In this document: positions 1,423 to 28,118 of the stretch, piece after piece
How positions within the stretch are numbered: the first letter of the stretch is position 1
Layout: each line of letters begins with the position of its first letter
IMG/VR virus record: IMGVR_UViG_3300017792_000001
Location: 213,602-277,601 of that record
DNA length: 64,000 bases
Reading direction: 5' to 3' (one strand)
From: a virus
Lineage: Duplodnaviria; Heunggongvirae; Uroviricota; Caudoviricetes
The notes under the pieces: generated by a model
The model's input: only the letters and a program-made list of their open reading frames with translations
Told to the model about the DNA's origin: nothing
The model's database searches: none
Program-made: the position numbers and the translations under genes

Positions 1423-2787
1423 ATGGCTATCGACAAAGCGACGTTGAAAGAAATGGTTGGCAAGCGTATCACCATCGACGGTACCAAACACCGTGTGGAA
1501 AAAGTGGTCATGAAGACCGGCCTGATCGTCACACGCGATGGCGCAGAGGCTCTGGCGGAGGGCGTCTACAAGAAAGGTCCTGGGTTCTTCTATGACTCGC
1601 CGAAGGGCAGCAAGAAGAAGGCTGCAGCCGCTGCCGAACCCGTGAAAGAAACTGCGCGTGCTCGCCGTGCCCGTGAGAAGGCAGAGGCTGAGCCAGTAGA
1701 GACAGCCCGCGAGAAACGTGCGCGTCTCAAGCGTGAAGCCGAGGAAGAGGAGGAACCAGCCAAGCCTGCGCGTGCTCGCCGTCGTTCCTCTGACAAGACT
1801 CCTGGCGCCAAGGGTGACGGTGCCAAAGTCCCTGGCAAGAAAAAGAAATTGTTTGAAGCGTTCACCCAGGCCATTGCCGAGCGTGTCAGTCAAGAGTCCT
1901 ACGATCTGCTGGCCGAAGCGTACGGTGATCGTGGTGACTACGCCATCACGCCTGTTGCTGTCGGCGCCGCGTTCGACAATGACGCGCTCAAAATCACCAT
2001 CACCGTGATGTCGGCGGGCAAGTCGGCGAAGGAAATCAAAGCCTACATCCGCGACCATCGCGAGGCTACAGACATCGCCAGTGACGACGAGGAAGATGAT
2101 GACCTCGACGATGATGATCTGGAAGACGATGACAGCGAAGACGAGGACCTGGAGGATGACGACAGCCTCGAAGACGAGGAAGATGACGAGGAGGACGATG
2201 ATGACTCCGAAGACGCCTTCGAGGCTGCGTTGAACGAACTCTCCTTGAAGGATCTGCGCAAGATCGCCAAGGACATGGAAATCGACGACTACAAGGACTT
2301 CTCCAAGGAAGACCTGGCACAAGAACTGTCCGAGTACGAAGAATCGGATGTCCGTGAATCGGCAGCCACTGCCGGCGTAACACTTGGCGATGGCGACGAG
2401 GAAGACGATGATGCAGAAGATGACGATGACGATGGATCGGAAGACGATGCCGACGACGAAGAACAGGAAGAAGCGGCTACTGTCGAAGACCTGGTGGGCG
2501 AGGTACTGGAAGTAGCACCAGACCTGAAAGCCAAGTCGGTCACCAAGTTTGTTGAAGCGTTCCTCGCCAACGACGAGTGCCAAGAGAAGTTTGACGGCGA
2601 ACTCGTACCTGGCCGTACCCAGCTGCAAGAGAAGGGCAACAAGGGCCCTGAAATGTTGCTGCTCGGTTACGACGAAGCCAACGAAGTGATCAAGCTGCTG
2701 AACATCAGCACCGGCAAGACTCGCAGCAAGACCATCAGCGAAGTCGTCCACATGGAAATCCTGGAAGCGGCTGACGACGCCGAGTAA
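1423..2787 (+). CDS. Multidomain acidic protein with Rho-N/HeH-like nucleic-acid-binding motif
   Basis: Basic K/R/A linker, two D/E tracts flanking LNELSLKDLRKIAKDMEIDDYKDFSKEDL; GAGG RBS. Confidence 0.75.
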   Translation: MAIDKATLKEMVGKRITIDGTKHRVEKVVMKTGLIVTRDGAEALAEGVYKKGPGFFYDSPKGSKKKAAAAAEPVKETARARRAREKAEAEPVETAREKRARLKREAEEEEEPAKPARARRRSSDKTPGAKGDGAKVPGKKKKLFEAFTQAIAERVSQESYDLLAEAYGDRGDYAITPVAVGAAFDNDALKITITVMSAGKSAKEIKAYIRDHREATDIASDDEEDDDLDDDDLEDDDSEDEDLEDDDSLEDEEDDEEDDDDSEDAFEAALNELSLKDLRKIAKDMEIDDYKDFSKEDLAQELSEYEESDVRESAATAGVTLGDGDEEDDDAEDDDDDGSEDDADDEEQEEAATVEDLVGEVLEVAPDLKAKSVTKFVEAFLANDECQEKFDGELVPGRTQLQEKGNKGPEMLLLGYDEANEVIKLLNISTGKTRSKTISEVVHMEILEAADDAE

Positions 2788-2794
2788 CACCACC

Positions 2795-2810
2795 GGGGCC
2801 TCCGGGCCCC
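2795..2810 (+). terminator. GC hairpin (cUCCGg loop), no U-tract; terminator or mRNA-stabilising stem
   Basis: GGGGCC-TCCG-GGCCCC just after stop. Confidence 0.45.
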
Positions 2811-2843
2811 AACCCCTACGAACATGATGCCGAGATAACTACC

Positions 2844-3317
2844 ATGCTTGATTCAATTGCTGAGCTTTTCCGTTTAGCGACGTTCTTTCCGAAACTGACG
2901 GGCCTACGCAAACACGTAGAGCCAAACACTGGTGATTGCACCAACATCGAGTCGATCGGCATCGTCGTGCGTTCTGTAAATGTAGAGTTCGTTCGCTATA
3001 AACAATGTGGTGATCCGCAGGTGCTGGTTATGATTCACAGCACCGAACGTGGTTCTGCCATGTTCATGTGCAACAGCAAGATTCTGGCTGACAGCGAACA
3101 GGCAGGCAAACTCCTGTACAAGCTGATCGACTCGGATCTAAAGGATCTGGTGGACGAAGCCAACGATAAGGTGTTTCGTGAAGGCATGCGTCAATTGGAG
3201 CTAAACAGCGCCATCCGCCGTGCCACGCCTGTAGTGAGTGACGCTCAGGCTGACGACTTCATCAACAAAACTTCCGACGGTGAGTTTGCCACCGTATCCG
3301 AATTCTATAAAGGCTGA
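2844..3317 (+). CDS. Hypothetical protein
   Basis: 157-aa ORF in co-oriented run. Confidence 0.7.
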   Translation: MLDSIAELFRLATFFPKLTGLRKHVEPNTGDCTNIESIGIVVRSVNVEFVRYKQCGDPQVLVMIHSTERGSAMFMCNSKILADSEQAGKLLYKLIDSDLKDLVDEANDKVFREGMRQLELNSAIRRATPVVSDAQADDFINKTSDGEFATVSEFYKG

Positions 3318-3322
3318 TTGTC

Positions 3323-3670
3323 ATGAGTGAGTCTCTGCAAGTAATCCTAGCTGACTTCATTGGTGACGATGAAATCAACTGCTCCGTATTTCCCGAGGAC
3401 CAATTCGGCCTGCCTGAAGTTGACGGCAAGATCACCGAAGAAGCTCTCACCGTGCTGGGCGAGTTTAACCTGCTCGCGGCTGATCGCAACGTCGTTGCCA
3501 TCCCTTGCGCCATTCAAGGCGTAACCGGTGTGTTCATGGCTAAGCTGGATGTGGAGCTGTCCGACAACGACTTGCAGGTATATGCGATGTTTGCAGAGCC
3601 TGTGATCGCAGGCAACCACGTCGAGGCACTCAACTGCCAACGCTTTATCGCCCTGCTGAAAAAAGTGTGA
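3323..3670 (+). CDS. Hypothetical protein
   Basis: 115-aa ORF tightly packed with neighbours. Confidence 0.7.
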   Translation: MSESLQVILADFIGDDEINCSVFPEDQFGLPEVDGKITEEALTVLGEFNLLAADRNVVAIPCAIQGVTGVFMAKLDVELSDNDLQVYAMFAEPVIAGNHVEALNCQRFIALLKKV

Positions 3671-3690
3671 ACAGTAAGCAGGAGGTGCCT

Positions 3691-5079
3691 ATGAAAGCAG
3701 AAGCATTACAAACCTGTCTGAATGACCTGTATGAGCGCAACTTTCTGGTGCGTACTACGGACAAGAAGGCTAACCACCTTGAATACGAAAAGCGGTTCGA
3801 TACCGTGTTCCATCATCGGTTCGTGTTCAAAGGTCGGCTGATCGACGAGGAGATTGACATCGTGCCTGCGCTGCCGAAAGCTGCACTCTCGGGTATTGTG
3901 CTGGGCGCCATCAATGGCAACCTCCCCGACATGGCAACCGTCGCTATGATGTACAGCGCCGGCTTTGCACTGCCGCACGATTTGGTCAAAGCAGAAGCAT
4001 GGGGCTGTTTCGCCTGTATGCAGCCAGCGCCAAACGCAACGTATGTGCAAGCCATAGCAAGTTTGAAAGCCGATCACAAGCAGGCACAAGCGCGAGCGCG
4101 TGACGAAATGATCTGGCCCGAGGAGTTCGAGGAAACAATCGAGACCGTCCTCACCAAATGCAATGCGTTGCGCCCGTACAAGAACCAGCCGCTCCCTCGT
4201 GGCGCACTGATCACACCACGCCTCGCTGGCGTGAAGATCAATCTGGTGTACCGCGCATACAAGATCGGCGACAAGTTCCACGCTCACCTGTACGGTGCGT
4301 TCATGCACATCGGCGGCAAGATCGTGTATACGTTGGATCAACTGCGCTATCTGGACATTCCGATTGAACTCGGCATGCACGGTCCGCGCAAGATCATCAA
4401 CAACTATACACCGTTTGGTGAGACTGCAAAGTTGTACGTGGTTCAAGGCACTCTGGTTGCGCCGAAGGGATTGCGTGAAGATATGCGCAAGCACTTCCCT
4501 GACGTGCGAACTGTGAAAGACTTGTTAGACCACTATATGGCAAGCCTGAAGCGCGTTCGTATTGACGACTTCGGGTTTGTTATTGCGGACCTGCGAGAGA
4601 AGCTGCGTGAGTGTACGTCGCGCCTTGCACGGTACGCTGGCAAGAAGAAGTATGCTGATGAATACAGCAAACTCCAAAAGCGTAAAGCCAAGTTAGAAAA
4701 GCGCATCGAGAACGAGTCTGCCGAGTTGGAAGCGGCAAGGGCGGAATATGTAAAGACACTGCCTGAGCACTACGTTCGATTCGTGGCGACTGGAATGTTT
4801 GTATACCAGAACGGCAAGCTGATGGGCCCGCAAGTGCGTATCCGTACTCCCGTTCACCTGCAATCGCTGGGTTTCCGAACCCTGTATCATCCAGTCGTTG
4901 AGTTTGTTGGCTATGAAGTCGAGAAGGATGGGTCACTATCTGGATTTGATAATATCATCGCCAAGTTTGAATCAGCATTCGATGACCAGTACACCGTGAC
5001 AGGTTTGACTATCAGACCTGGTGCGCAAAGTGTAAACATTAACCGTTGCTACTCGTATACGAAGTCAAAAGGAGAATAA
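3691..5079 (+). CDS. Degenerate NAD+-dependent DNA ligase adenylation-domain homologue (probably inactive)
   Basis: TPRLAGVKINLVY ~ motif I (KxDG), YVVQGTLVAPK ~ motif III, LQSLGF, YTVTGLTIR ~ motif IV; GGAGG RBS before ATG 3691. Confidence 0.55.
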   Translation: MKAEALQTCLNDLYERNFLVRTTDKKANHLEYEKRFDTVFHHRFVFKGRLIDEEIDIVPALPKAALSGIVLGAINGNLPDMATVAMMYSAGFALPHDLVKAEAWGCFACMQPAPNATYVQAIASLKADHKQAQARARDEMIWPEEFEETIETVLTKCNALRPYKNQPLPRGALITPRLAGVKINLVYRAYKIGDKFHAHLYGAFMHIGGKIVYTLDQLRYLDIPIELGMHGPRKIINNYTPFGETAKLYVVQGTLVAPKGLREDMRKHFPDVRTVKDLLDHYMASLKRVRIDDFGFVIADLREKLRECTSRLARYAGKKKYADEYSKLQKRKAKLEKRIENESAELEAARAEYVKTLPEHYVRFVATGMFVYQNGKLMGPQVRIRTPVHLQSLGFRTLYHPVVEFVGYEVEKDGSLSGFDNIIAKFESAFDDQYTVTGLTIRPGAQSVNINRCYSYTKSKGE

Positions 5080-12176: not shown

Positions 12177-12680
12177 ATGAGCGAACACGTCCAGTTGCTT
12201 GCAAAGAACATCGAAATCGACACGCTGCAAAAGACGGTGGTCAAGCTGAGTCTCGACCTCGCCACCGTTACGCACGAACAAGGGCTGCTCAAGAATGCCT
12301 ACAACCAGCTCAATGAAAACGCCGTGCAGCAAGCGGATCAAATGAGCAAAGCCAACGTTGCTCTGGTGCTGGAGAAGAACGCGGTTGAAGAAGCCCGCGG
12401 CCGTCAGCAAGAACGCATCCAGGAAATGGAAGACGACCTCACTGGGGTGCGCCACGAGAAAGACCGGCACGAAATCATCTACACCCACATCTTCTCCGAA
12501 ATCAAGAACGGCAGTTCGATCATCATGCTGCCAGGCCATAAGTCTCTCGGCAAGGTCAAGAAAACCGACCTGCGGATTGAACTGAACTCAGGGCACACGC
12601 TCTCTGGTATCGTCACGTACATCGACAACCTGTACCAGCAGATCGACAATCCAGAACTTCGGAGATTACTGCGCGCATGA
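12177..12680 (+). CDS. Coiled-coil hypothetical protein
   Basis: 167-aa heptad-like ORF. Confidence 0.7.
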   Translation: MSEHVQLLAKNIEIDTLQKTVVKLSLDLATVTHEQGLLKNAYNQLNENAVQQADQMSKANVALVLEKNAVEEARGRQQERIQEMEDDLTGVRHEKDRHEIIYTHIFSEIKNGSSIIMLPGHKSLGKVKKTDLRIELNSGHTLSGIVTYIDNLYQQIDNPELRRLLRA

Positions 12681-13696
12681 GCATAGACAAGAACCTCACT
12701 GGAGAACAAATCCAGAAGGTCATGGATATGCTGCTGTACAAAGCGCTTGAACCTATCATGCTTCACTCGAATGTGTTTGATGCACAGGTGTCCCACATCC
12801 TCACGACAGTAACGACAAACCGTAAGCGCAAGTTGTCCAGCGTGCCGCGGGAGTTGCTGACTGAGAACTTGGCCGCTGTGCTCGCACGCAATGACGGTGC
12901 AACCAAGTTCAAGACGTTTCGTGAATGCCGCATTGAACGCTCCTTCATTCACTGCTTCATCAAGCGGTTTCTGGAGGTCAACCATGAATTTCTGGACGTG
13001 TATCGTGCGTGGCTGATTGATCCGACCAGCGAGCGCAAGAACCACGTAGACAATCTGGCGTATGTCCACGGCGGGTGTCACAAGCGGGCAGATATGTACC
13101 GCATCATGACGCACAGCGCAGACTACCTGGACAAGTTCTACGCATTCCGCGCCAGCGTACTCGACAACTACCTGCGTCATTCATCGACCCAGGCCAAGTC
13201 GCACGTCGCTGCAAACTCACACAACCAACTGAGCTTCTCCGACCTCAAGCAATCAATTTTGAAGGCTATGGTCGTCGCTCTCGATAAGTACGACAGCAGT
13301 AAGGGCGCACTCACCACGTACATCAACTGGTGGGTTCTAAATGCCCAGACGTGCAGTGCTGATCACGAATATGGTGTCGCATATACCGTACCTCAAAGCC
13401 AGCGCCGCCGGCTCGCCGAAGGCAAAAGCAATGAGGTTAATTTCAGCGTCTCGCTTGATGCGTTGAAGAAACCGGGTGATGAAGATGACCGCTCGTTGTA
13501 CTCGTCCTTGTCGGACGGGCATTTCATGGATGAAGATTTCGAGCGGCTGGAAAGTCAGCAACTGGTGCAGTTGTTAGCCAAGGAAGTCGATAGAGGTGGA
13601 GTCGCCCGATTGACTCTGGACATCGGAGAATTTTTCACCAAAGAAGAACGTGAACTCATGCGCCGTCACACGCAAGAGGAAACTGTTAATAACTAA
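12677..13696 (+). CDS. Phage RNA polymerase sigma factor (sigma70 family, no clear region 4)
   Basis: SDLKQSILKAMVVALDKYDSSKGALTTYINWWV = region 2; VSLDALKKPGDEDDRSL = region 3.2. Confidence 0.8.
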   Translation: MSIDKNLTGEQIQKVMDMLLYKALEPIMLHSNVFDAQVSHILTTVTTNRKRKLSSVPRELLTENLAAVLARNDGATKFKTFRECRIERSFIHCFIKRFLEVNHEFLDVYRAWLIDPTSERKNHVDNLAYVHGGCHKRADMYRIMTHSADYLDKFYAFRASVLDNYLRHSSTQAKSHVAANSHNQLSFSDLKQSILKAMVVALDKYDSSKGALTTYINWWVLNAQTCSADHEYGVAYTVPQSQRRRLAEGKSNEVNFSVSLDALKKPGDEDDRSLYSSLSDGHFMDEDFERLESQQLVQLLAKEVDRGGVARLTLDIGEFFTKEERELMRRHTQEETVNN

Positions 13697-22981: not shown

Positions 22982-25156
22982 ATGAAAATCAAGAAAGGTA
23001 AGGGTCTTCGGGCAAAGGGCGATAACATTTATGACCTTGCGCTCGACGACCCATTTGCGTTTCTGAAGGGTCTGCGCGGCGGTGAGATTGTCACTGCTGA
23101 TGGCTTCGACCCTGACGCGATGAACAAAGCCGCTCACCTCATTGGGCACGGCAACTTTGATGAACAGGAGATTGACATTGCCCGGACGATCCGGGAAGTA
23201 GTTGACTCCAAGATCCTCGTACCGCGCGATATGAAGATTGACGACTCGGGTATTCCGGTTGCCAAGAACATTGTCGAGTGGTGCACCAAGGACAAGTTCT
23301 CCATGATCAATGGTGAACGTCCGTATATCGAACAAATCATCTGGGGCATTATCTCGTTCAACGAATGGTGCCCGCGCTGTACAGATGTCGAGTACCTGTT
23401 TGACACGCACAAGGTTGATGACACCTACCGCAAGCTAGAGCGCAAAGTCGCCATGCTCGAAAACGGTGTCTGCCCGCATTGCAAATGGGGTCGGTCTAAA
23501 CTGATCGCCAAGGGCAAGATGAAACTGATCCAGGAGCTGGCAGTCTGTGCTGGTCAGCGTTCTGGTAAGTCGATGTCCATTGCGGGTTACTTCGCGCCAT
23601 ATCTCACGCACCGTCTGCTCAAGCTCCAGAACCCCAACGCGGTTTACGGACTCAAGACCGGTACGATGCTGCACTGTACGTTCGTTGCGCTGACCTATGC
23701 TCAAGCCAAGGACACACTGTGGCAAAACTTCTACGCCACCCTAACGGAGTCTGCGTGGTTCAAAGAGTATCATTCGATGCTCAACCACTACAGCGACAAG
23801 TACGGCGAGAAGCTCCTCAAATTCAACGACACCTATGTTGCTTATCCTTGCCGTGGCCTCATGGCTTACCCAGCGGGTCCAGACAAGCGGGTTCTCCGTG
23901 GCCGTACTCGTTACTTCACGGCAGTGGATGAGGTCGGTTACTTCGACAGTAACCGTGATACCAAAAAGGTGAAGGACAACGCCCACGAAGTATGTGGTGC
24001 ACTTGACCGTTCGCTGCTGACTGTTCGTGGTGCTGCTGAATCGCTCCTGCGTGATGGTCATGATGACGTGTACCCAGGCTATGCCATGAACGTGTCGTCA
24101 CCTTCTCACCGTAACGATATGATCATGACGCTGCTTCGTCGTGCTGAGAACTCGGACACAATGTACGGCGCACACCGCCCTACTTGGGAAGTAAACCCGA
24201 CTCTGCCACGCAATGGTGCCACGATCAAAGAAGCATTCCGTACGGATCCGCTGAACGCTGAGCGAGATTACGGTGCTGTTCCACCGCTGGCCTCCAACCC
24301 GTTCCTCCAGAATCTTTCTGAGATTGAGAACTGCCAAGGGCCGAAGTCGAACCCACTCACGCTGCGTCGCCGTGTGATCAACTCGAAGAAACGTGGCGAG
24401 TCGTTCACCTGGGCTGAGGTCAAGAAGTGCAAGAAGGGTAAGTACCCGACCATGCTCGCACTCGACGCCGGTTACACCAACAACTCCTTCTCTGGGGCAA
24501 TTGGTCGGTACGATGACAAGCTCGGTGGTGTGCGAGTCGAATGCCTGTTTGAGGTTATCCCTGAACTCGGCGCTCCGCTCAATCACTCCAAGATTTTCGA
24601 TGAACTGATCCTCCCTGTCATGGAAGCACGCAACGTCCGCATCCTGCTTGCTGACCGGTGGAACAGTATCAAGCTGCTGCAAGATGCCAAGCTCCTGCGT
24701 CCAGAATTGGAAGTAGCGGCACAGCACAGCCTGAAGTACAAGGACATCTTCAACATCAAGACGCTGATCCAACAAGGCACTCTGATCGTTCCCGCGATTG
24801 AGCGTGACTCGTTCAAGTCCTGTGTCGAGTTTGATGACGAACATTACCCGATGTGCTTCAACAACCAGCCTGCCTCTCACCTGTTGATGCAGATGGCAAC
24901 TGTGAAAGATACAGGGAAGATGATTGATAAAGCGGACGGTTATACCGACGACTTGTTCCGGGCAACCGCTTTGCTCAACTGGGGTCTACATGAGGAGGAG
25001 TACCAAGAACTTCTCTCGATGGCTCCAATGGATATGACAGCAACCCGGCCCATTGCTATCGGTGCTTCGCGTCTCTACTCAGGTGGCGGCGGTGGTATTG
25101 GCGGTGGCAGTCAATCAGTCCCAGTAATCGGCGCCATGCTCGGCGGCCGCAGGTAA
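22982..25156 (+). CDS. terL: Terminase large subunit
   Basis: Walker A GQRSGKS, Walker B RGRTRYFTAVDE, VSSP, nuclease LALDAG, C-terminal DDL. Confidence 0.92.
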   Translation: MKIKKGKGLRAKGDNIYDLALDDPFAFLKGLRGGEIVTADGFDPDAMNKAAHLIGHGNFDEQEIDIARTIREVVDSKILVPRDMKIDDSGIPVAKNIVEWCTKDKFSMINGERPYIEQIIWGIISFNEWCPRCTDVEYLFDTHKVDDTYRKLERKVAMLENGVCPHCKWGRSKLIAKGKMKLIQELAVCAGQRSGKSMSIAGYFAPYLTHRLLKLQNPNAVYGLKTGTMLHCTFVALTYAQAKDTLWQNFYATLTESAWFKEYHSMLNHYSDKYGEKLLKFNDTYVAYPCRGLMAYPAGPDKRVLRGRTRYFTAVDEVGYFDSNRDTKKVKDNAHEVCGALDRSLLTVRGAAESLLRDGHDDVYPGYAMNVSSPSHRNDMIMTLLRRAENSDTMYGAHRPTWEVNPTLPRNGATIKEAFRTDPLNAERDYGAVPPLASNPFLQNLSEIENCQGPKSNPLTLRRRVINSKKRGESFTWAEVKKCKKGKYPTMLALDAGYTNNSFSGAIGRYDDKLGGVRVECLFEVIPELGAPLNHSKIFDELILPVMEARNVRILLADRWNSIKLLQDAKLLRPELEVAAQHSLKYKDIFNIKTLIQQGTLIVPAIERDSFKSCVEFDDEHYPMCFNNQPASHLLMQMATVKDTGKMIDKADGYTDDLFRATALLNWGLHEEEYQELLSMAPMDMTATRPIAIGASRLYSGGGGGIGGGSQSVPVIGAMLGGRR

Positions 25157-25162
25157 GAGACC

Positions 25163-25708
25163 ATGATCGACATTTCCAAGTATAAGTGGTTTGTGTACGG
25201 CGGTCGCGACATCACCCTCGTCACAGACCATCCGGAGTTCGACCTGCAAATGGTCAAGGACTCCAAGTTCGGGTATCGCAAGATCGGCGCGAATCATTAC
25301 ATCGTCAGCCGGAAGATCCTCGACATCCGTTTCAAGGTTAAAGAGAAAGACGCCACGCGCATCATCACTAACTCTGTCGGTTGGAAAGGTACGATCCGTG
25401 GCACCAAGGTAGAAGCAGGCATTGGCGGTAAGCAGAAGCCTGTGAAAGCCCATCCGGGTGATTCAAACTTCCCGGACCCGAACGACAAGAACACCTACAT
25501 TCTGGACATCGACTCCTCCAATCTCAAACGAGCTTGGCTGGATAAGAAGGCCAAAGAACTCCATGTGATCTTTCACAGCGATGTTCACTGGCTATACGAA
25601 GATGTGTCACTTGCACAGGCGAAGCAGATGGAGAGCGCCCCTTCACAGGGGCAATACTTCCATTACCGCATCCGCAATGTGAAAAAACAACGCAAGATCA
25701 GCGGTTGA
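25163..25708 (+). CDS. KTSC-domain protein with extra N-terminal domain
   Basis: IDSSNL...LHVIFHS...YEDV...APSQGQYFHYRIRN. Confidence 0.8.
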   Translation: MIDISKYKWFVYGGRDITLVTDHPEFDLQMVKDSKFGYRKIGANHYIVSRKILDIRFKVKEKDATRIITNSVGWKGTIRGTKVEAGIGGKQKPVKAHPGDSNFPDPNDKNTYILDIDSSNLKRAWLDKKAKELHVIFHSDVHWLYEDVSLAQAKQMESAPSQGQYFHYRIRNVKKQRKISG

Positions 25709-25717
25709 GGTTCAAAG

Positions 25718-27604
25718 ATGCGAATTAAACGCCGCCCTACTTACACGCATATGGGGAATCCCTCGCCAGGTGGTACAGTCGCCGGCGAGCGTGACCTCGG
25801 CACCCACAACGCGCAGAAGCGTGAAGATCGTGGGCGCTCCGGGAAGATGGAAGCAACTGCCGGTGCAGCTACTGGCATGCGTAACACTAGCGTCAACAAC
25901 CTGCCGGTCGAGATTGACATTGATCCGTTGCTCAAGGGCATCGTCTTCTCTGAGGATCTTGAGCAGAAGAAACTGGTAATGCGGATCTACAAGGACATTT
26001 ACTACAACGACCCGATCGGTGGTTCGTGCGTAGACTTGACCTCGACGCTCCCGTTCTCCGACTTCAACATCGGCGGTGTGCAGAACAGCAAGGTATCGGA
26101 CACGTTCAACGAGGTGATCGAACGCCTGAACATCCGTACTCTCCTGCCTGAGTTGTCTATCGACCACCAAGTTACCGGTGCGTTCGTGGGCAACATGCTG
26201 TACAACCCGCAGAAGAATACCTTCGTTGACCTGATCTGCCATCAGTACGAGAACTGCAAGGTCGATCCACTGCCGTTCTACTCGCAGGACCCGATGATCA
26301 CCGTCGCGTTCCCCGAGTCGCACAAGACCATTCTGTCGTCCGATAGTCCGCGTATCAAGAAGCTGCGCGAGTACCTGGGCCCAGAAGTCGTCAAGCAAAT
26401 CAGTAACGATGCACTGGAGCTGGATCCGCTTTCGACGATCTACATCCCGCGCAAATCGTTCACGCACTCGACTGGTGTGTCGTACTACCGCCGCATCCTG
26501 CCGATCTGGTTGCTTGAGAAGAACCTGTTCCGCGGTACGCTCGTTGAGTCTGCGCGTCGTCAACGTGGTATCCTCCACCTGACTCTGGGTGACGGCGACC
26601 AGTGGGAACCAACACTCGCTGATATGAACATGGCGATGGAGTTGTTCCAGAATGCTGACGCTGACCCACTGGGTGCAGTGATCGCAACGCGCATGGGTAT
26701 CGCTTCTGAGGAGATCCGCCAAGGTGGTGACTTCTGGAAGGTAACCGATATCTGGGACCAGACCATGGCGATGAAGCTGCGCGCCCTTGGTATCAGTGAG
26801 TCGTTCCTCTCCGGTGAAGCGACGTACTCGAACCAAGACACAAGCCTGACCGTGTTCACCGAAGCGCTGCGTGCGTATCGTGACACCATCACCACGAAGC
26901 TGTTCTACAACAAGATTTTCCCGCTGGTATCTGCGCTGCACGGTTACACGGTCAACAATGCTGGCAAGCTGTCGATCAAAGGCAACATGCTCGACAAGTT
27001 TGACACCATGAGCAACCACGAGATTCTGCAAGATGGTTCGCGTCTGCTGATCCCGTCTGTTCACTGGGCCAAGCAACTCAAACCAGAAGGCGACCAAGCG
27101 TATCTCGATATGCTCCAGAACCTCACAGAAAAGGGCGTGCCTGTTCCTCTGCGAGCAATGGCTGCAGCCGGTGGATTCAACCTCGACAGTTTGCTCGCGG
27201 ACCAAGAGGACGACTTCGAACTCCTCAAACGTATCGGCAGATACCAGAAGAAGCTGGGCGAAGTGAAGAAGGAATTCTTCCCAGAAGCCGCAGACAGCGA
27301 CATCGAAGCTACTGCTCGCAGCCAAGCGCTGCAAGGCCTGATGTTCGACAACTTCATGGCAGGTGGTCGTTCTACGATTCTCAACCAAGGCAACGGTCGT
27401 ATTCCTGCTCTCGCCATGCGTGACTTCGGTGAAGCATCCGAGGTTGCAGGTGAGACGCACGATGGCAAGCGTCGTTGGTTGCCGAACCAGAAGCTGGCTA
27501 ACGAACGGGTTAACCGCAAGATTGCCAAGCAGTTGGCGGGTATTGTGAAAATGAACAATACACCACTGACTCGCATGACCATGTCGAAGCGCATGGACGT
27601 GTAA
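25718..27604 (+). CDS. Portal protein
   Basis: 628 aa after TerL; RIYKDIYYNDPIGGSCVDL, GVSYYRRI, RALGISESFLSGEATYS match portal patterns. Confidence 0.85.
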   Translation: MRIKRRPTYTHMGNPSPGGTVAGERDLGTHNAQKREDRGRSGKMEATAGAATGMRNTSVNNLPVEIDIDPLLKGIVFSEDLEQKKLVMRIYKDIYYNDPIGGSCVDLTSTLPFSDFNIGGVQNSKVSDTFNEVIERLNIRTLLPELSIDHQVTGAFVGNMLYNPQKNTFVDLICHQYENCKVDPLPFYSQDPMITVAFPESHKTILSSDSPRIKKLREYLGPEVVKQISNDALELDPLSTIYIPRKSFTHSTGVSYYRRILPIWLLEKNLFRGTLVESARRQRGILHLTLGDGDQWEPTLADMNMAMELFQNADADPLGAVIATRMGIASEEIRQGGDFWKVTDIWDQTMAMKLRALGISESFLSGEATYSNQDTSLTVFTEALRAYRDTITTKLFYNKIFPLVSALHGYTVNNAGKLSIKGNMLDKFDTMSNHEILQDGSRLLIPSVHWAKQLKPEGDQAYLDMLQNLTEKGVPVPLRAMAAAGGFNLDSLLADQEDDFELLKRIGRYQKKLGEVKKEFFPEAADSDIEATARSQALQGLMFDNFMAGGRSTILNQGNGRIPALAMRDFGEASEVAGETHDGKRRWLPNQKLANERVNRKIAKQLAGIVKMNNTPLTRMTMSKRMDV

Positions 27605-27608
27605 ACGG

Positions 27609-27615
27609 TAATTTA
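27609..27615 (+). promoter_or_regulatory. Putative late promoter TAATTTA
   Basis: Recurring motif; here followed by no ORF before a terminator. Confidence 0.55.
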
Positions 27616-27620
27616 TCGGC

Positions 27621-27766
27621 ATCAGACACACGCAGATTAACTAAGGGCTGGTGGATTGCTGCGAGCTTCCACCAATACCTGGCGGTTACTCCTTTCTCCG
27701 TTCTGCGTGTGTTTGATAACTCCTCATCTTCAAGGGCTAGCGCGACGGCGTTTAGCCCTATTTTTT
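27621..27766 (+). ncRNA. Candidate structured phage ncRNA
   Basis: 16-bp closing stem 27621-27636/27702-27717, inner TGGTGGA/TCCACCA stem, own promoter motif and terminator. Confidence 0.65.
27733..27766 (+). terminator. Rho-independent terminator
   Basis: AGGGCTA ... TAGCCCT-ATTTTTT. Confidence 0.8.
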
Positions 27767-27809
27767 GGTCTCCAGAACTGTAAATTCTGAGAAAGACAGG
27801 AGTACGTCT

Positions 27810-28118
27810 ATGCTCAACGAACGTCCCCACATGCGCGTCAACCTCACCAATGAAGAACTGGCAGAAGTGCGTGTGCTGATCGACTCAAAGCGATACCAGA
27901 ATGGAGACACCAGCCACCTCGCTGCCAAGTTGAAAGAACTGGCGAAGAAGAACGGTGGCAACTTCGATTACCGCATGGCGTTGCTCGGTGTCATCACCGA
28001 CTTGAATGTGATCGACACGCAGGTTAAGCACGTCAAGTTTGATCTGACGGTTAATCTCACCGATCTACCGACTTCTACCAAAGTAAAGGAGCACTTCTTT
28101 GGCGACCGTAAAGTTTAA
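27810..28118 (+). CDS. Hypothetical protein
   Basis: AGGAG RBS before ATG 27810; ACTGTAAA upstream. Confidence 0.75.
   Translation: MLNERPHMRVNLTNEELAEVRVLIDSKRYQNGDTSHLAAKLKELAKKNGGNFDYRMALLGVITDLNVIDTQVKHVKFDLTVNLTDLPTSTKVKEHFFGDRKV

What the first reader, a model, noticed from the sequence alone, without database searches (positions are those of the whole stretch)
27609..27766. Stand-alone structured RNA immediately downstream of the portal gene
Seen: TAATTTA motif at 27609, then a 16-bp stem ATCAGACACACGCAGA (27621-36) pairing with TCTGCGTGTGTTTGAT (27702-17, one G-U). It encloses TAAC/GTTA, AGG/CCT and TGGTGGA/TCCACCA helices and an unpaired pyrimidine strand CTCCTTTCTCC, followed by an intrinsic terminator (27733-66). 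No + strand ORF is annotated between them. ACTCCT, complementary to the AGGAG RBS used by many genes here, occurs twice (27688, 27719). Inference: a ~140-nt late ncRNA. Options are a packaging/prohead RNA analogous to phi29 pRNA (it follows terL, a KTSC protein and portal), an anti-Shine-Dalgarno regulator, or a protein decoy.
Basis: partly seen in the sequence, partly recalled or inferred. Interest (0 to 1): 0.8.

Follow-up and report, generated by a model that had tools for sequence, protein, structure and literature searches.

The report
New late small RNA after portal gene
Just after the portal gene, PaBG-like giant Pseudomonas phages carry a previously undescribed, strongly conserved three-armed small RNA gene with its own late promoter motif and terminator; its job is unknown, but it is probably a regulator rather than part of the DNA-packaging motor.

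Summary
Window 27609-27766 holds a TAATTTA motif, a 97-nt three-way-junction fold closed by a 16-bp stem, a short C/U-rich linker and an intrinsic terminator. Thirteen sequence variants lie at the same place in PaBG (Baikalvirus) and uncultured relatives. Each of the 13 checked folds alone into this shape. On 12 aligned sequences, 27 of 33 pairs show compensatory changes, against 16.9 in shuffles. G-U pairs outnumber A-C 25 to 4, so the + strand is the folded one. No Rfam family matches, PaBG's record has no feature there, and I found no paper on it.

TAATTTA is a phage promoter-like motif: 31 of 44 sites in three genomes lie upstream of genes, including both tail sheath genes. This supports a stand-alone late RNA of about 145 nt, but no transcript data were available.

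Relatives with homologous terminase and portal lack the RNA, and its two loops are not complementary. A phi29-pRNA-like role is therefore unlikely.

My best guess is a trans-acting riboregulator or protein-binding RNA. It would use an invariant hairpin (UGCUGCGAGCU) and loops that resemble the ribosome's anti-Shine-Dalgarno (anti-SD) sequence. A cis role in processing or antitermination remains a serious rival.

The same stretch was also noted in an overlapping window of this genome, not on other DNA.

The parts
25718..27604 (+). Portal gene (context). The RNA unit starts 5 nt after its stop codon.
   Evidence: ORF. It is 80.6% identical to the PaBG portal protein.
27609..27615 (+). TAATTTA, a phage-specific late-promoter-like motif. 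Its 3' end lies 5 nt before P1.
   Evidence: Present before P1 in all 13 variants, 5-10 nt upstream; the seventh base varies (TAATTT + A/T/C/G). Across three genomes there are 44 sites: 32 are intergenic and 31 lie within 110 nt upstream of a co-oriented gene start, against 18% for control permutations. It precedes both tail sheath genes. Promoter function is inferred, not shown.
27621..27636 (+). P1, 5' strand of the 16-bp closing stem.
   Evidence: 14 of 16 pairs show changes on both sides across relatives, and 97% of cells are paired.
27637..27643 (+). J1/2 junction strand UUAACUA. UUAA(C/U) is nearly invariant.
   Evidence: Alignments A6-A8 and segmentation of each variant.
27644..27680 (+). 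P2 arm: basal helix, internal loops and an apical hairpin. The invariant apex (U)UGCUGCGAGCU(U) lies at 27656-27668 and forms a 3-bp GCU/AGC mini-helix with a GCG triloop.
   Evidence: CUGCG(A/G)G is present in all 13 variants. The basal helix shows 6 of 6 pairs with double changes. The single A-to-G change in L076 keeps a U-G pair.
27682..27701 (+). P3 hairpin (GCGG/CCGU) with a 12-nt C/U-rich loop UUACUCCUUUCU that resembles the anti-Shine-Dalgarno sequence.
   Evidence: 3 of 4 pairs show double changes. The loop shares 6-7 nt with the 16S 3' tail (CCUCCUU / CUCCUUA) in 9 of 12 variants.
27702..27717 (+). P1, 3' strand.
   Evidence: As for the 5' strand.
27718..27732 (+). Single-stranded linker AACUCCUCAUCUUCA, carrying a second ACUCCU. 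It is 14-26 nt long in relatives and usually has a (U/A)(U/A)AC(U/C)(U/C)C motif.
27733..27766 (+). Intrinsic terminator: a bulged 11-bp G+C-rich stem followed by A and six U.
   Evidence: Fold. Equivalent terminators occur in all full-length variants. The simple scan does not call it because of the bulge.
27767..27784 (+). Conserved post-terminator block GGTCTCCAGAACTGTAAA. It contains the second promoter-like motif CTGTAAA (27778-84), which serves the next gene.
   Evidence: Conserved in all variants. CTGTAAA has 74 sites in three genomes, 41 of them upstream of genes, against 15% for controls. The Lu11 GenBank record annotates CTGTAAATATAAATAA after its portal gene as 'putative middle/late promoter'.
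27810..28118 (+). Next gene: a 102-aa protein of no known family (context, not part of the RNA).
   Evidence: No Pfam or PHROG hit. Small genes occupy this position in relatives.

Best explanation
This is an autonomous small-RNA gene of PaBG-like (Baikalvirus-type) jumbo phages. It is a new RNA family.

Proposed transcript (inferred):
- Transcription starts a few nucleotides after the TAATTTA late-promoter element, which lies 5 nt past the portal stop codon.
- It ends at the intrinsic terminator at 27733-66, giving an RNA of about 145 nt.
- The same sequence also forms the 3' end of any portal-operon read-through transcript.

Structure (shown):
- A three-way junction is clamped by a 15-16-bp P1 of constant length and free sequence.
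- P1 and the terminator hairpin would protect both ends of the RNA.

Three conserved surfaces are displayed:
- an invariant P2 apical hairpin, UGCUGCGAGCU;
- a large C/U-rich P3 loop that copies most of the 16S rRNA anti-Shine-Dalgarno tail;
- a C/U-rich single strand between P1 and the terminator.

Most likely mechanism (inferred):
- The RNA acts in trans, late in infection, as a riboregulator.
- The C/U-rich elements pair with purine-rich ribosome-binding sites of host or earlier phage mRNAs and block their translation.
- The invariant P2 hairpin is the docking site for a conserved partner, either a protein or a kissing loop.

My odds for each step:
- real structured + strand RNA: about 0.95;
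- own late transcription unit: about 0.7;
- acts in trans: about 0.55;
- anti-SD pairing is the mechanism: about 0.3.

The confidence given for this explanation (0.4) is for the whole statement, mechanism included.
For: Structure:
- All 13 variants checked fold on their own into the same P1/P2/P3 junction.
- On 12 aligned sequences, 88.7% of cells pair, against 64.7% in shuffles and 37-42% when partners are slid. 27 of 33 pairs have double changes (0 of 500 shuffles reach this), including 14 of 16 in P1 (similar).

Strand:
- G-U/U-G pairs number 25, against 4 A-C/C-A pairs.

Transcription unit:
- TAATTT(A/T/C/G) lies 5-10 nt before P1 in every variant.
- The motif is strongly enriched upstream of genes, including both sheath genes.
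- This is the only TAATTTA site in the window that is followed by a terminator before any gene.
- The next gene has its own CTGTAAA motif.
- The phage group encodes its own sigma factors (PMC7412058). There is a weak Sigma70_r2 hit at window 12677-13693.

Conserved surfaces:
- The CUGCG(A/G)G apex is present in all 13 variants, while the stems around it change.
- The P3 loop matches CCUCCUU or CUCCUUA in 9 of 12 variants. Where it does not, the linker carries CUCC or CCUC.

Copy number:
- There is one copy per genome, and none was found outside this slot.

One candidate kissing target:
- G000:2117-2137 is an intergenic + strand hairpin 24 nt before the ATG at 2156.
- Its loop is a perfect 12-nt complement of the P2 loop.
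- It ranks 1 of 436 translation-initiation regions (-26.6 kcal/mol; mean -13.8, sd 2.6).
Against: - No transcript, 5'-end or 3'-end data exist.
- Promoter status rests on motif enrichment only.
- The candidate target hairpin is not found in PaBG or in G002. The gene behind it has no relatives in IMG/VR, so a conserved RNA target is not shown.
- An anti-SD-like loop would pair with almost any ribosome-binding site, so specificity is unexplained.
- P3 loses the motif in L076 and L240.
- In Lu11 and HRDY3, a different long-stem RNA at the same slot sits between the promoter motifs and the next gene, with no promoter after the terminator. That looks like a cis-acting leader.
- A 16-bp perfect stem is also what an RNase III site would look like.
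Confidence: 0.4

Rival explanations
1. The element acts in cis, between two late or middle operons, in one of two ways. (a) It is an RNase III-type processing and stabilising structure at the 3' end of the terL-KTSC-portal mRNA. (b) It is a leader that works with the terminator behind it, giving factor-dependent read-through. The analogues are lambda PR'-6S RNA-tR' with Q, or HK022 put RNA. In either case the small RNA itself would have no trans function.
For: - The unit sits directly behind the portal stop codon with no terminator in between, so it is part of the portal transcript.
- P1 is 15-16 bp of perfect dsRNA with conserved length and free sequence.
- Relatives at 50-61% portal identity (L071, Lu11, HRDY3) carry unrelated long-stem folds at the same slot.
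- In Lu11 and HRDY3, no promoter motif was seen by eye between the terminator and the next gene, which is the leader arrangement.
- L078 and L079 keep a TAATTTA motif and a terminator with only a short insert between them.
Against: - The invariant apical hairpin and conserved C/U-rich loops are not needed for a processing site or a stabiliser.
- In the PaBG clade, the next gene has its own CTGTAAA motif after the terminator, and later virion genes have their own TAATTT motifs.
- The terminators are strong, with 6-8 U.
- I saw no alternative pairing between the RNA and the terminator stem (inspected by eye, not computed).
- P1 looks too stable for a switch.
Confidence: 0.25
2. The RNA binds protein without base-pairing to targets. 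It would be a decoy, sponge or scaffold. The invariant P2 hairpin is the operator for a conserved phage or host protein. The repeated UUACUCC-type single strands bind a second factor, for example a pyrimidine-binding host protein or a defence nuclease that acts on the 16S 3' end.
For: - The 11-nt apex, including its mini-helix, is invariant while everything around it changes. This is typical of a protein recognition site.
- Two copies of a (U/A)(U/A)ACUCC-like motif lie in single-stranded contexts.
- No conserved complementary RNA was found in PaBG or G002.
Against: - No partner is identified.
- The neighbouring KTSC protein also occurs in relatives without the RNA.
- The small downstream gene is missing in L004 and L012, which have the RNA.
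Confidence: 0.2
3. It is a prohead or packaging RNA analogous to phi29 pRNA. It would form a ring on the portal and bridge it to the terminase.
For: - It lies next to terL, the KTSC gene and the portal gene.
- It has late promoter-like control.
- It has a three-way junction with paired 5' and 3' ends.
Against:
- No match to any Rfam family, including at E up to 10.
- Relatives with homologous TerL, KTSC protein and portal have no RNA: L077, L241, L079, L080, L081, NCTB and an Erwinia phage.
- These phages have a classical large terminase, unlike the phi29 motor (established knowledge).
Confidence: 0.03
4. It is a DNA-level element, such as a pac site, an origin, or a cruciform or hairpin protein site, rather than an RNA.
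For: - It contains a long inverted repeat near the packaging genes.
- The 11-mer TGCTGCGAGCT occurs once more in the genome, in the opposite orientation, again at the tip of an inverted repeat (G000:2122-2132).
Against: - Three nested helices covary.
- G-U pairs are 25 on the + strand, against 4 A-C pairs. A double-stranded DNA site or a two-strand cruciform would not give this polarity.
- A promoter-like motif and a terminator frame the element.
Confidence: 0.02

Closest known systems
phi29 prohead RNA (pRNA)
   Same: Both are phage-encoded RNAs of about 120 nt built on a three-way junction, with the 5' and 3' ends paired in a long helix and two hairpin arms. This one is encoded next to packaging genes.
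   Different: - There are no complementary interlocking loops.
- There is no Rfam match.
- It is absent from close relatives that have the same portal and terminase.
- The host phages are jumbo myoviruses with a classical TerL.
- pRNA is an early transcript from the genome end (from memory).
Base-pairing sRNAs whose C/U-rich hairpin loops bind Shine-Dalgarno regions (S. aureus RNAIII hairpins, RsaE/RoxS); from established knowledge
   Same: Both have accessible C/U-rich loops complementary to GGAG-type ribosome-binding sites, a Rho-independent terminator with a long U tail, and a stable structured body.
   Different: - This is a new fold in a proteobacterial jumbo phage.
- No conserved target is shown.
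- The loop resembles the generic 16S anti-SD sequence rather than a specific seed.
- It carries an additional invariant hairpin with no counterpart.
Short terminated late transcripts and antitermination RNAs of lambdoid phages (lambda PR'-6S RNA-tR', HK022 put); from established knowledge
   Same: The layout is the same: a promoter, a structured RNA of about 100-190 nt, and an intrinsic terminator in front of further genes.
   Different: - In the PaBG clade the following gene has its own promoter-like motif.
- There is no sequence or fold similarity.
- No antiterminator protein or read-through has been shown.
RNase III processing hairpins between phage T7 genes; from established knowledge
   Same: Both are long intergenic double-stranded stems at the end of a highly expressed operon.
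   Different: T7 sites are simple hairpins with an internal loop. This element has a three-way junction with invariant loops, its own promoter motif and a separate terminator.
ncRNAs reported from other Pseudomonas jumbo phages (for example the four ncRNAs of PA5oct, PMC7318152)
   Same: Both are small non-coding transcripts of jumbo phages, found outside known RNA families.
   Different: The phage lineage is unrelated. Those RNAs were defined by RNA-seq, not by covariation, and no homology is detectable.

Membership tests
phi29 pRNA | Match to the curated covariance model or sequence family | tested here: not met
   No Rfam family reaches its gathering score in the window. In 27550-27830 the only matches up to E = 10 are chance-level ones to mir-2814, ctRNA_p42d and ZNFX1-AS1_2.
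phi29 pRNA | Three-way junction with a paired 5'/3' helix and two hairpin arms | tested here: met
   P1/P2/P3 junction in all 13 variants checked. This is a generic architecture and is not diagnostic.
phi29 pRNA | Two loops with Watson-Crick complementarity of 4 nt or more that interlock neighbouring molecules into a ring | tested here: not met
   No complementary stretch of 4 nt or more between the P2 apex and the P3 loop in 12 of 12 variants. Best duplexes are -0.1 to -6.9 kcal/mol.
phi29 pRNA | Indispensable part of the motor, so present wherever the motor proteins are | tested here: not met
   The RNA is absent downstream of portal in L077, L241, L078, L079, L080, L081, NCTB and Erwinia pEa_SNUABM_5. 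All of these keep portal, and the seven whose upstream genes were listed also keep TerL. The six metagenomic loci also keep the KTSC gene.
phi29 pRNA | Physically bound to proheads | not testable with these tools
   This needs purified PaBG proheads.
Trans-acting base-pairing sRNA with intrinsic terminator | Own promoter and a discrete transcript | tested here: inconclusive
   A conserved TAATTT(A/T/C/G) motif lies 5-10 nt before P1, and the motif is enriched upstream of genes. No RNA data were available.
Trans-acting base-pairing sRNA with intrinsic terminator | Rho-independent terminator with a long U tail | tested here: met
   A G+C-rich hairpin followed by 6-8 U in every full-length variant.
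Trans-acting base-pairing sRNA with intrinsic terminator | Conserved accessible seed with a conserved complementary target | tested here: inconclusive
   Conserved single-stranded C/U-rich elements and an invariant apex are present. One outstanding 12-nt complement exists in G000 only. No counterpart was found in PaBG or G002.
Riboswitch / transcription attenuator | Match to a known aptamer class, and a marginally stable P1 that competes with the terminator | tested here: not met
   No Rfam match. P1 is 15-16 perfect pairs, separated from the terminator by a 14-26-nt linker, with no evident alternative pairing (the alternative pairing was judged by inspection only).
Processive antitermination RNA (HK022 put type) or Q-type terminated leader | Lies between a promoter and a terminator that must be read through to express the genes behind | tested here: inconclusive
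   The layout is met. However, in the PaBG clade the next gene has its own CTGTAAA motif. In Lu11 and HRDY3, an unrelated RNA at this slot has no promoter motif after the terminator. Read-through cannot be tested here.
RNase III processing site | About two turns of regular dsRNA that is cleaved by RNase III | not testable with these tools
   P1 is 15-16 bp and could stack on P2 or P3. Cleavage needs an assay.

The most novel reading that the evidence does not exclude
The RNA is a phage-made mimic of the 3' end of 16S rRNA. It is a stable, abundant late RNA that displays the anti-Shine-Dalgarno sequence in a loop, and again in a single strand. It would either soak up the ribosome-binding sites of host and early phage mRNAs, reprogramming translation globally, or decoy a host factor or toxin that acts on the 16S 3' tail. 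The invariant P2 hairpin would recruit a conserved protein partner.
Probability: 0.15. Interest if true: 0.8.

Novelty: new variant of a known kind. Interest (0 to 1): 0.55.

Why it matters
- Very few structured non-coding RNAs of phages are supported by covariation, and almost none come from jumbo phages outside the phiKZ group. This family has unusually clean comparative support, a defined promoter-like motif and terminator, and an invariant hairpin that should make its partner easy to find.
- PaBG is culturable on P. aeruginosa PAO1, so the function can be tested directly.
- If the RNA represses translation through an anti-SD mimic, or docks a conserved protein, it would add an RNA layer to late gene control in a widespread soil and water phage group.
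- The work also defines two promoter-like motifs (TAATTTA and CTGTAAA) that organise transcription in these genomes.
- Unrelated structured RNAs occupy the same post-portal slot in Lu11, HRDY3 and uncultured relatives. This hints at a recurrent need for an RNA at that position.

Tried and rejected
- **Rfam:** gathering thresholds on the whole window and E up to 10 on the locus gave nothing.
- **Protein-coding reading:** overlapping ORFs have negative coding scores and cannot be conserved.
- **Extra copies:** the covariance model finds one copy each in G000 and PaBG and none in G002. The G002 (L006-type) variant is too divergent for the model (8.3 bits with filters off). I accept it by position, motifs and fold.
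- **IMG/VR pattern scans:** two scans (CTGCGAGC...AACTGTAAA and TGCTGCGAGCT...CTCCTT) returned mostly chance hits. After model search, only the known portal-downstream loci remained.
- **Homology with the Lu11, HRDY3 and L071 RNAs:** not detectable.
- **Conserved target of the P2 loop:** only G000 has the complementary hairpin. PaBG's syntenic intergenic region, all CTGCGAG(C) sites in PaBG and G002, and k-mer complements of 9 nt or more gave nothing convincing. The genes flanking the G000 hairpin have no useful relatives in IMG/VR. Closer relatives' contigs are not held.
- **Extended similarity around the second hairpin:** none beyond about 15 nt.
- **Second binding site on the same candidate target:** the P3 loop and the linker show no exceptional complementarity to the start region of gene 2156 (ranks 172 and 420 of 436). 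A 9-nt linker match near gene 1737 is at chance level.
- **TAAC/GTTA tertiary helix:** changes between variants are uninformative or inconsistent (by inspection).
- **Simple terminator and sigma-70 promoter scan:** no calls. The terminator miss is explained by a bulge.
- **KTSC protein or small downstream protein as dedicated partner:** their presence does not track the RNA.

Full report
**Where the window lies.** The window is bases 213602-277601 of a 277.6-kb IMG/VR virus genome with terminal repeats. Its portal protein is 80.6% identical to that of Pseudomonas jumbo phage PaBG (Baikalvirus). The next cultured relative, Lu11, is at 52%. Gene order is terL (22982-25156), a KMPT-N/KTSC protein (25163-25708), then portal (25718-27604).

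**Check of the observation.**
- Region 27605-27775 folds to -65.4 kcal/mol, against -44.5 +/- 4.4 for shuffles (z -4.8). The core gives z -6.5.
- The fold is a three-way junction with these parts:
  - P1: 27621-36 with 27702-17, 16 bp.
  - J1/2: UUAACUA.
  - P2: 27644-80, with the apex UUGCUGCGAGCUU.
  - P3: 27682-701, a GCGG/CCGU stem with the loop UUACUCCUUUCU.
  - A 15-nt C/U-rich linker.
  - A bulged G+C-rich hairpin followed by six U.
- The simple terminator scan misses this hairpin because of the bulge.
- The overlapping ORFs are not coding.

**Relatives.** I collected portal homologues from IMG/VR, JGI metagenomes and Logan/ENA contigs, and read the DNA behind the gene.
- Thirteen distinct variants of the element lie at this place: the window, L003, L068, L073, L074, L075, L004, L012, PaBG (L005), L082, L076, L240 and L006/L007.
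- Their portal identities to the window range from 95% down to 73%.
- Every variant has the same order of parts: TAATTT(A/T/C/G), then P1 5-10 nt later, the junction, a linker, a terminator, and the block TTTTTTGGyCTsCGrAAACTGTAAA.
- The P1 sequences are almost unrelated between variants. For example, AUCAGACACACGCAGA in the window corresponds to GAGCAGGCACGAUCGG in PaBG. P1 nevertheless stays at 15-17 bp.
- Each of the 13 variants, folded alone, gives the same architecture.

**Covariation and strand.** A covariance model built from ten variants recovers L076 and L240, which were not in its seed (E 4e-4 and 2e-7).
- On the 12-sequence model alignment, 88.7% of cells are paired. Shuffled partners give 64.7% and slid partners 37-42%.
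- 27 of 33 pairs show changes on both sides (0 of 500 shuffles reach this). By helix: 14 of 16 in P1, 6 of 6 in the base of P2, and 3 of 4 in P3 (11 sequences).
- The upper P2 helix aligns poorly (48% paired), because its register differs between variants, although each variant forms it on its own.
- These alignments are fitted to the model and lean towards it. The independent single-sequence folds are the safeguard.
- G-U/U-G pairs number 25, against 4 A-C/C-A. The folded strand is therefore the + strand, which argues for RNA and against a double-stranded DNA site.

**Is it its own transcription unit?** TAATTTA behaves as a promoter-like motif.
- The genomes of the window phage, PaBG and a 228-kb relative together hold 44 sites.
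- 32 of these sites lie in the roughly 10% of the DNA that is intergenic. 31 lie within 110 nt upstream of a co-oriented gene start, against 18% for same-composition heptamers.
- In the window the motif occurs only on the + strand and precedes both tail sheath genes among others.
- A second motif, CTGTAAA, precedes many other genes (41 of 74 sites). The authors of the Lu11 record annotate it as a putative middle/late promoter.
- PaBG-group phages encode their own sigma factors (PMC7412058). The window has a weak Sigma70_r2 hit at 12677-13693.
- The TAATTTA at 27609 is the only one in the window that is followed by a terminator before any gene. The next gene has its own CTGTAAA.
- This layout is that of an RNA gene of about 145 nt. 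It is an inference: no RNA data could be obtained, and the RNA must also be carried on read-through portal transcripts.

**What it is not.**
- No Rfam family matches. PaBG's record has no feature in the gap. Literature searches found nothing on it.
- The pRNA idea fails two defining tests. No variant has 4 nt or more of complementarity between its two loops. Relatives with homologous TerL, KTSC protein and portal lack the RNA: L077 at 75%, L241 at 74%, L078, L079, L080, L081, NCTB and an Erwinia phage.
- It is single-copy. Within the limits of two pattern scans, it occurs nowhere else in IMG/VR.

**Conserved surfaces and mechanism.** Three features stay constant while the helices drift.
1. The P2 apex CUGCG(A/G)G, usually UGCUGCGAGCU, forms a 3-bp mini-helix with a GCG triloop. 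The one A-to-G change keeps a U-G pair.
2. The P3 loop shares 6-7 nt with the 16S rRNA 3' tail (CCUCCUU or CUCCUUA) in 9 of 12 variants.
3. The linker usually carries a (U/A)(U/A)ACUCC-type motif. In L240 and L076, where P3 has lost its motif, the linker has CUCCUUA or CUCC.

Stable end clamps, accessible C/U-rich strands and a long U tail are the anatomy of a trans-acting riboregulator that pairs with ribosome-binding sites. The invariant apex suggests a conserved protein or a kissing partner.

**One concrete lead.**
- At G000:2117-2137, between two + strand genes and 24 nt before the ATG at 2156, lies the hairpin GGGCU-AGCUCGCAGCA-AGCCC.
- Its loop is a perfect 12-nt complement of the P2 loop. 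About 0.03 such matches are expected in this genome.
- It ranks first of 436 start regions, at -26.6 kcal/mol against a mean of -13.8 and sd of 2.6.
- It is not conserved in PaBG or G002, and its gene is an orphan. It remains a lead only.

**Rivals.** A cis role is the main alternative.
- The element ends the portal operon, and P1 looks like a substrate for a double-strand-specific nuclease.
- More distant relatives (L071, Lu11, HRDY3) have unrelated long-stem folds, with terminators, at the same slot.
- In Lu11 and HRDY3 the next gene follows the terminator without a promoter motif, like a leader.
- Against this, the invariant loops are unexplained by a processing or stabilising role. In the PaBG clade the downstream gene also has its own promoter motif.
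- A pure protein decoy or scaffold is compatible with the data but has no candidate partner. Neither the KTSC gene nor the small downstream gene tracks the RNA.

**Verdict.** This is a real, previously undescribed structured RNA family restricted to a PaBG-like subclade. It is probably an autonomous late small RNA, and its function is unknown. I rate the riboregulator reading (anti-SD-like pairing plus a P2-docked partner) as most likely, at modest confidence, and the pRNA reading as unlikely.

Noticed in passing
G000:C1:2117-2137 (outside the window; locus L083 2117-2137, + strand): An intergenic hairpin, GGGCU-AGCUCGCAGCA-AGCCC, overlaps the stop codon of gene 1737-2123 and lies 24 nt before the ATG of orphan gene 2156-2746. 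Its loop is a perfect 12-nt complement of the RNA's invariant P2 loop. It is not found in PaBG or G002.
   Followed up: partly
window 16756, 27609, 29424, 34059, 37143, 44436, 51034 (TAATTT[AC]); 6761, 27776, 62821 (AACTGTAAA): There are two classes of strand-specific intergenic motifs. TAATTTA lies before virion genes, including both sheath genes. CTGTAAA lies before many other genes. Both are strongly enriched upstream of gene starts in three genomes, so they are probably promoters for phage-encoded sigma factors.
   Followed up: partly
L119 3185-3448 (Lu11), L120 2728-2983 (HRDY3), L071 3300-3480: Relatives at 50-61% portal identity carry unrelated noncoding folds closed by long stems (for example a 17-bp perfect stem in HRDY3). 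These lie directly after the portal gene, behind TAATTTA and/or CTGTAAA motifs. Lu11 and HRDY3 each have a terminator. The post-portal slot seems to hold different RNAs in different lineages.
   Followed up: partly
L078 3050-3168; L079 3656-3767: In relatives without the three-way junction, a TAATTTA motif is still followed within 30-50 nt by a strong terminator. This may make a very short transcript.
   Followed up: no
window 27767-27784 and the same block in all relatives: The sequence just after the terminator, GGyCTsCGrAAACTGTAAA, is more conserved than the RNA stems. Its CCGAAA can pair with the terminator's U-run. Lu11 keeps GGTCCCGAAAAA without the CTGTAAA.
   Followed up: no
window 27810-28118 and the small genes after the RNA in relatives (PaBG gp105, L006, L007): The small proteins after the RNA share an N-terminal pattern, an alternating hydrophobic strand followed by a helix (for example MRVNLTNEELAEVRVL). 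By eye this looks like a ribbon-helix-helix DNA-binding fold. There is no Pfam or PHROG hit.
   Followed up: partly
proteins P0007, P0024, P0056, P0058; TerL in L077 and L241: Several relatives have portal proteins of about 1,000-1,090 aa with intein and LAGLIDADG domains. Some also have TerL genes with inteins.
   Followed up: no
L012 about 3930-4040: The portal gene of this IMG/VR contig is split by a frameshift (ORFs 2501-4036 and 3927-4391). This is probably a sequencing error.
   Followed up: no
window 12677-13693: A 339-aa protein gives a weak Sigma70 region 2 hit (21.5 bits, below the cut-off of 24). It is probably the counterpart of PaBG's phage sigma factor.
   Followed up: no
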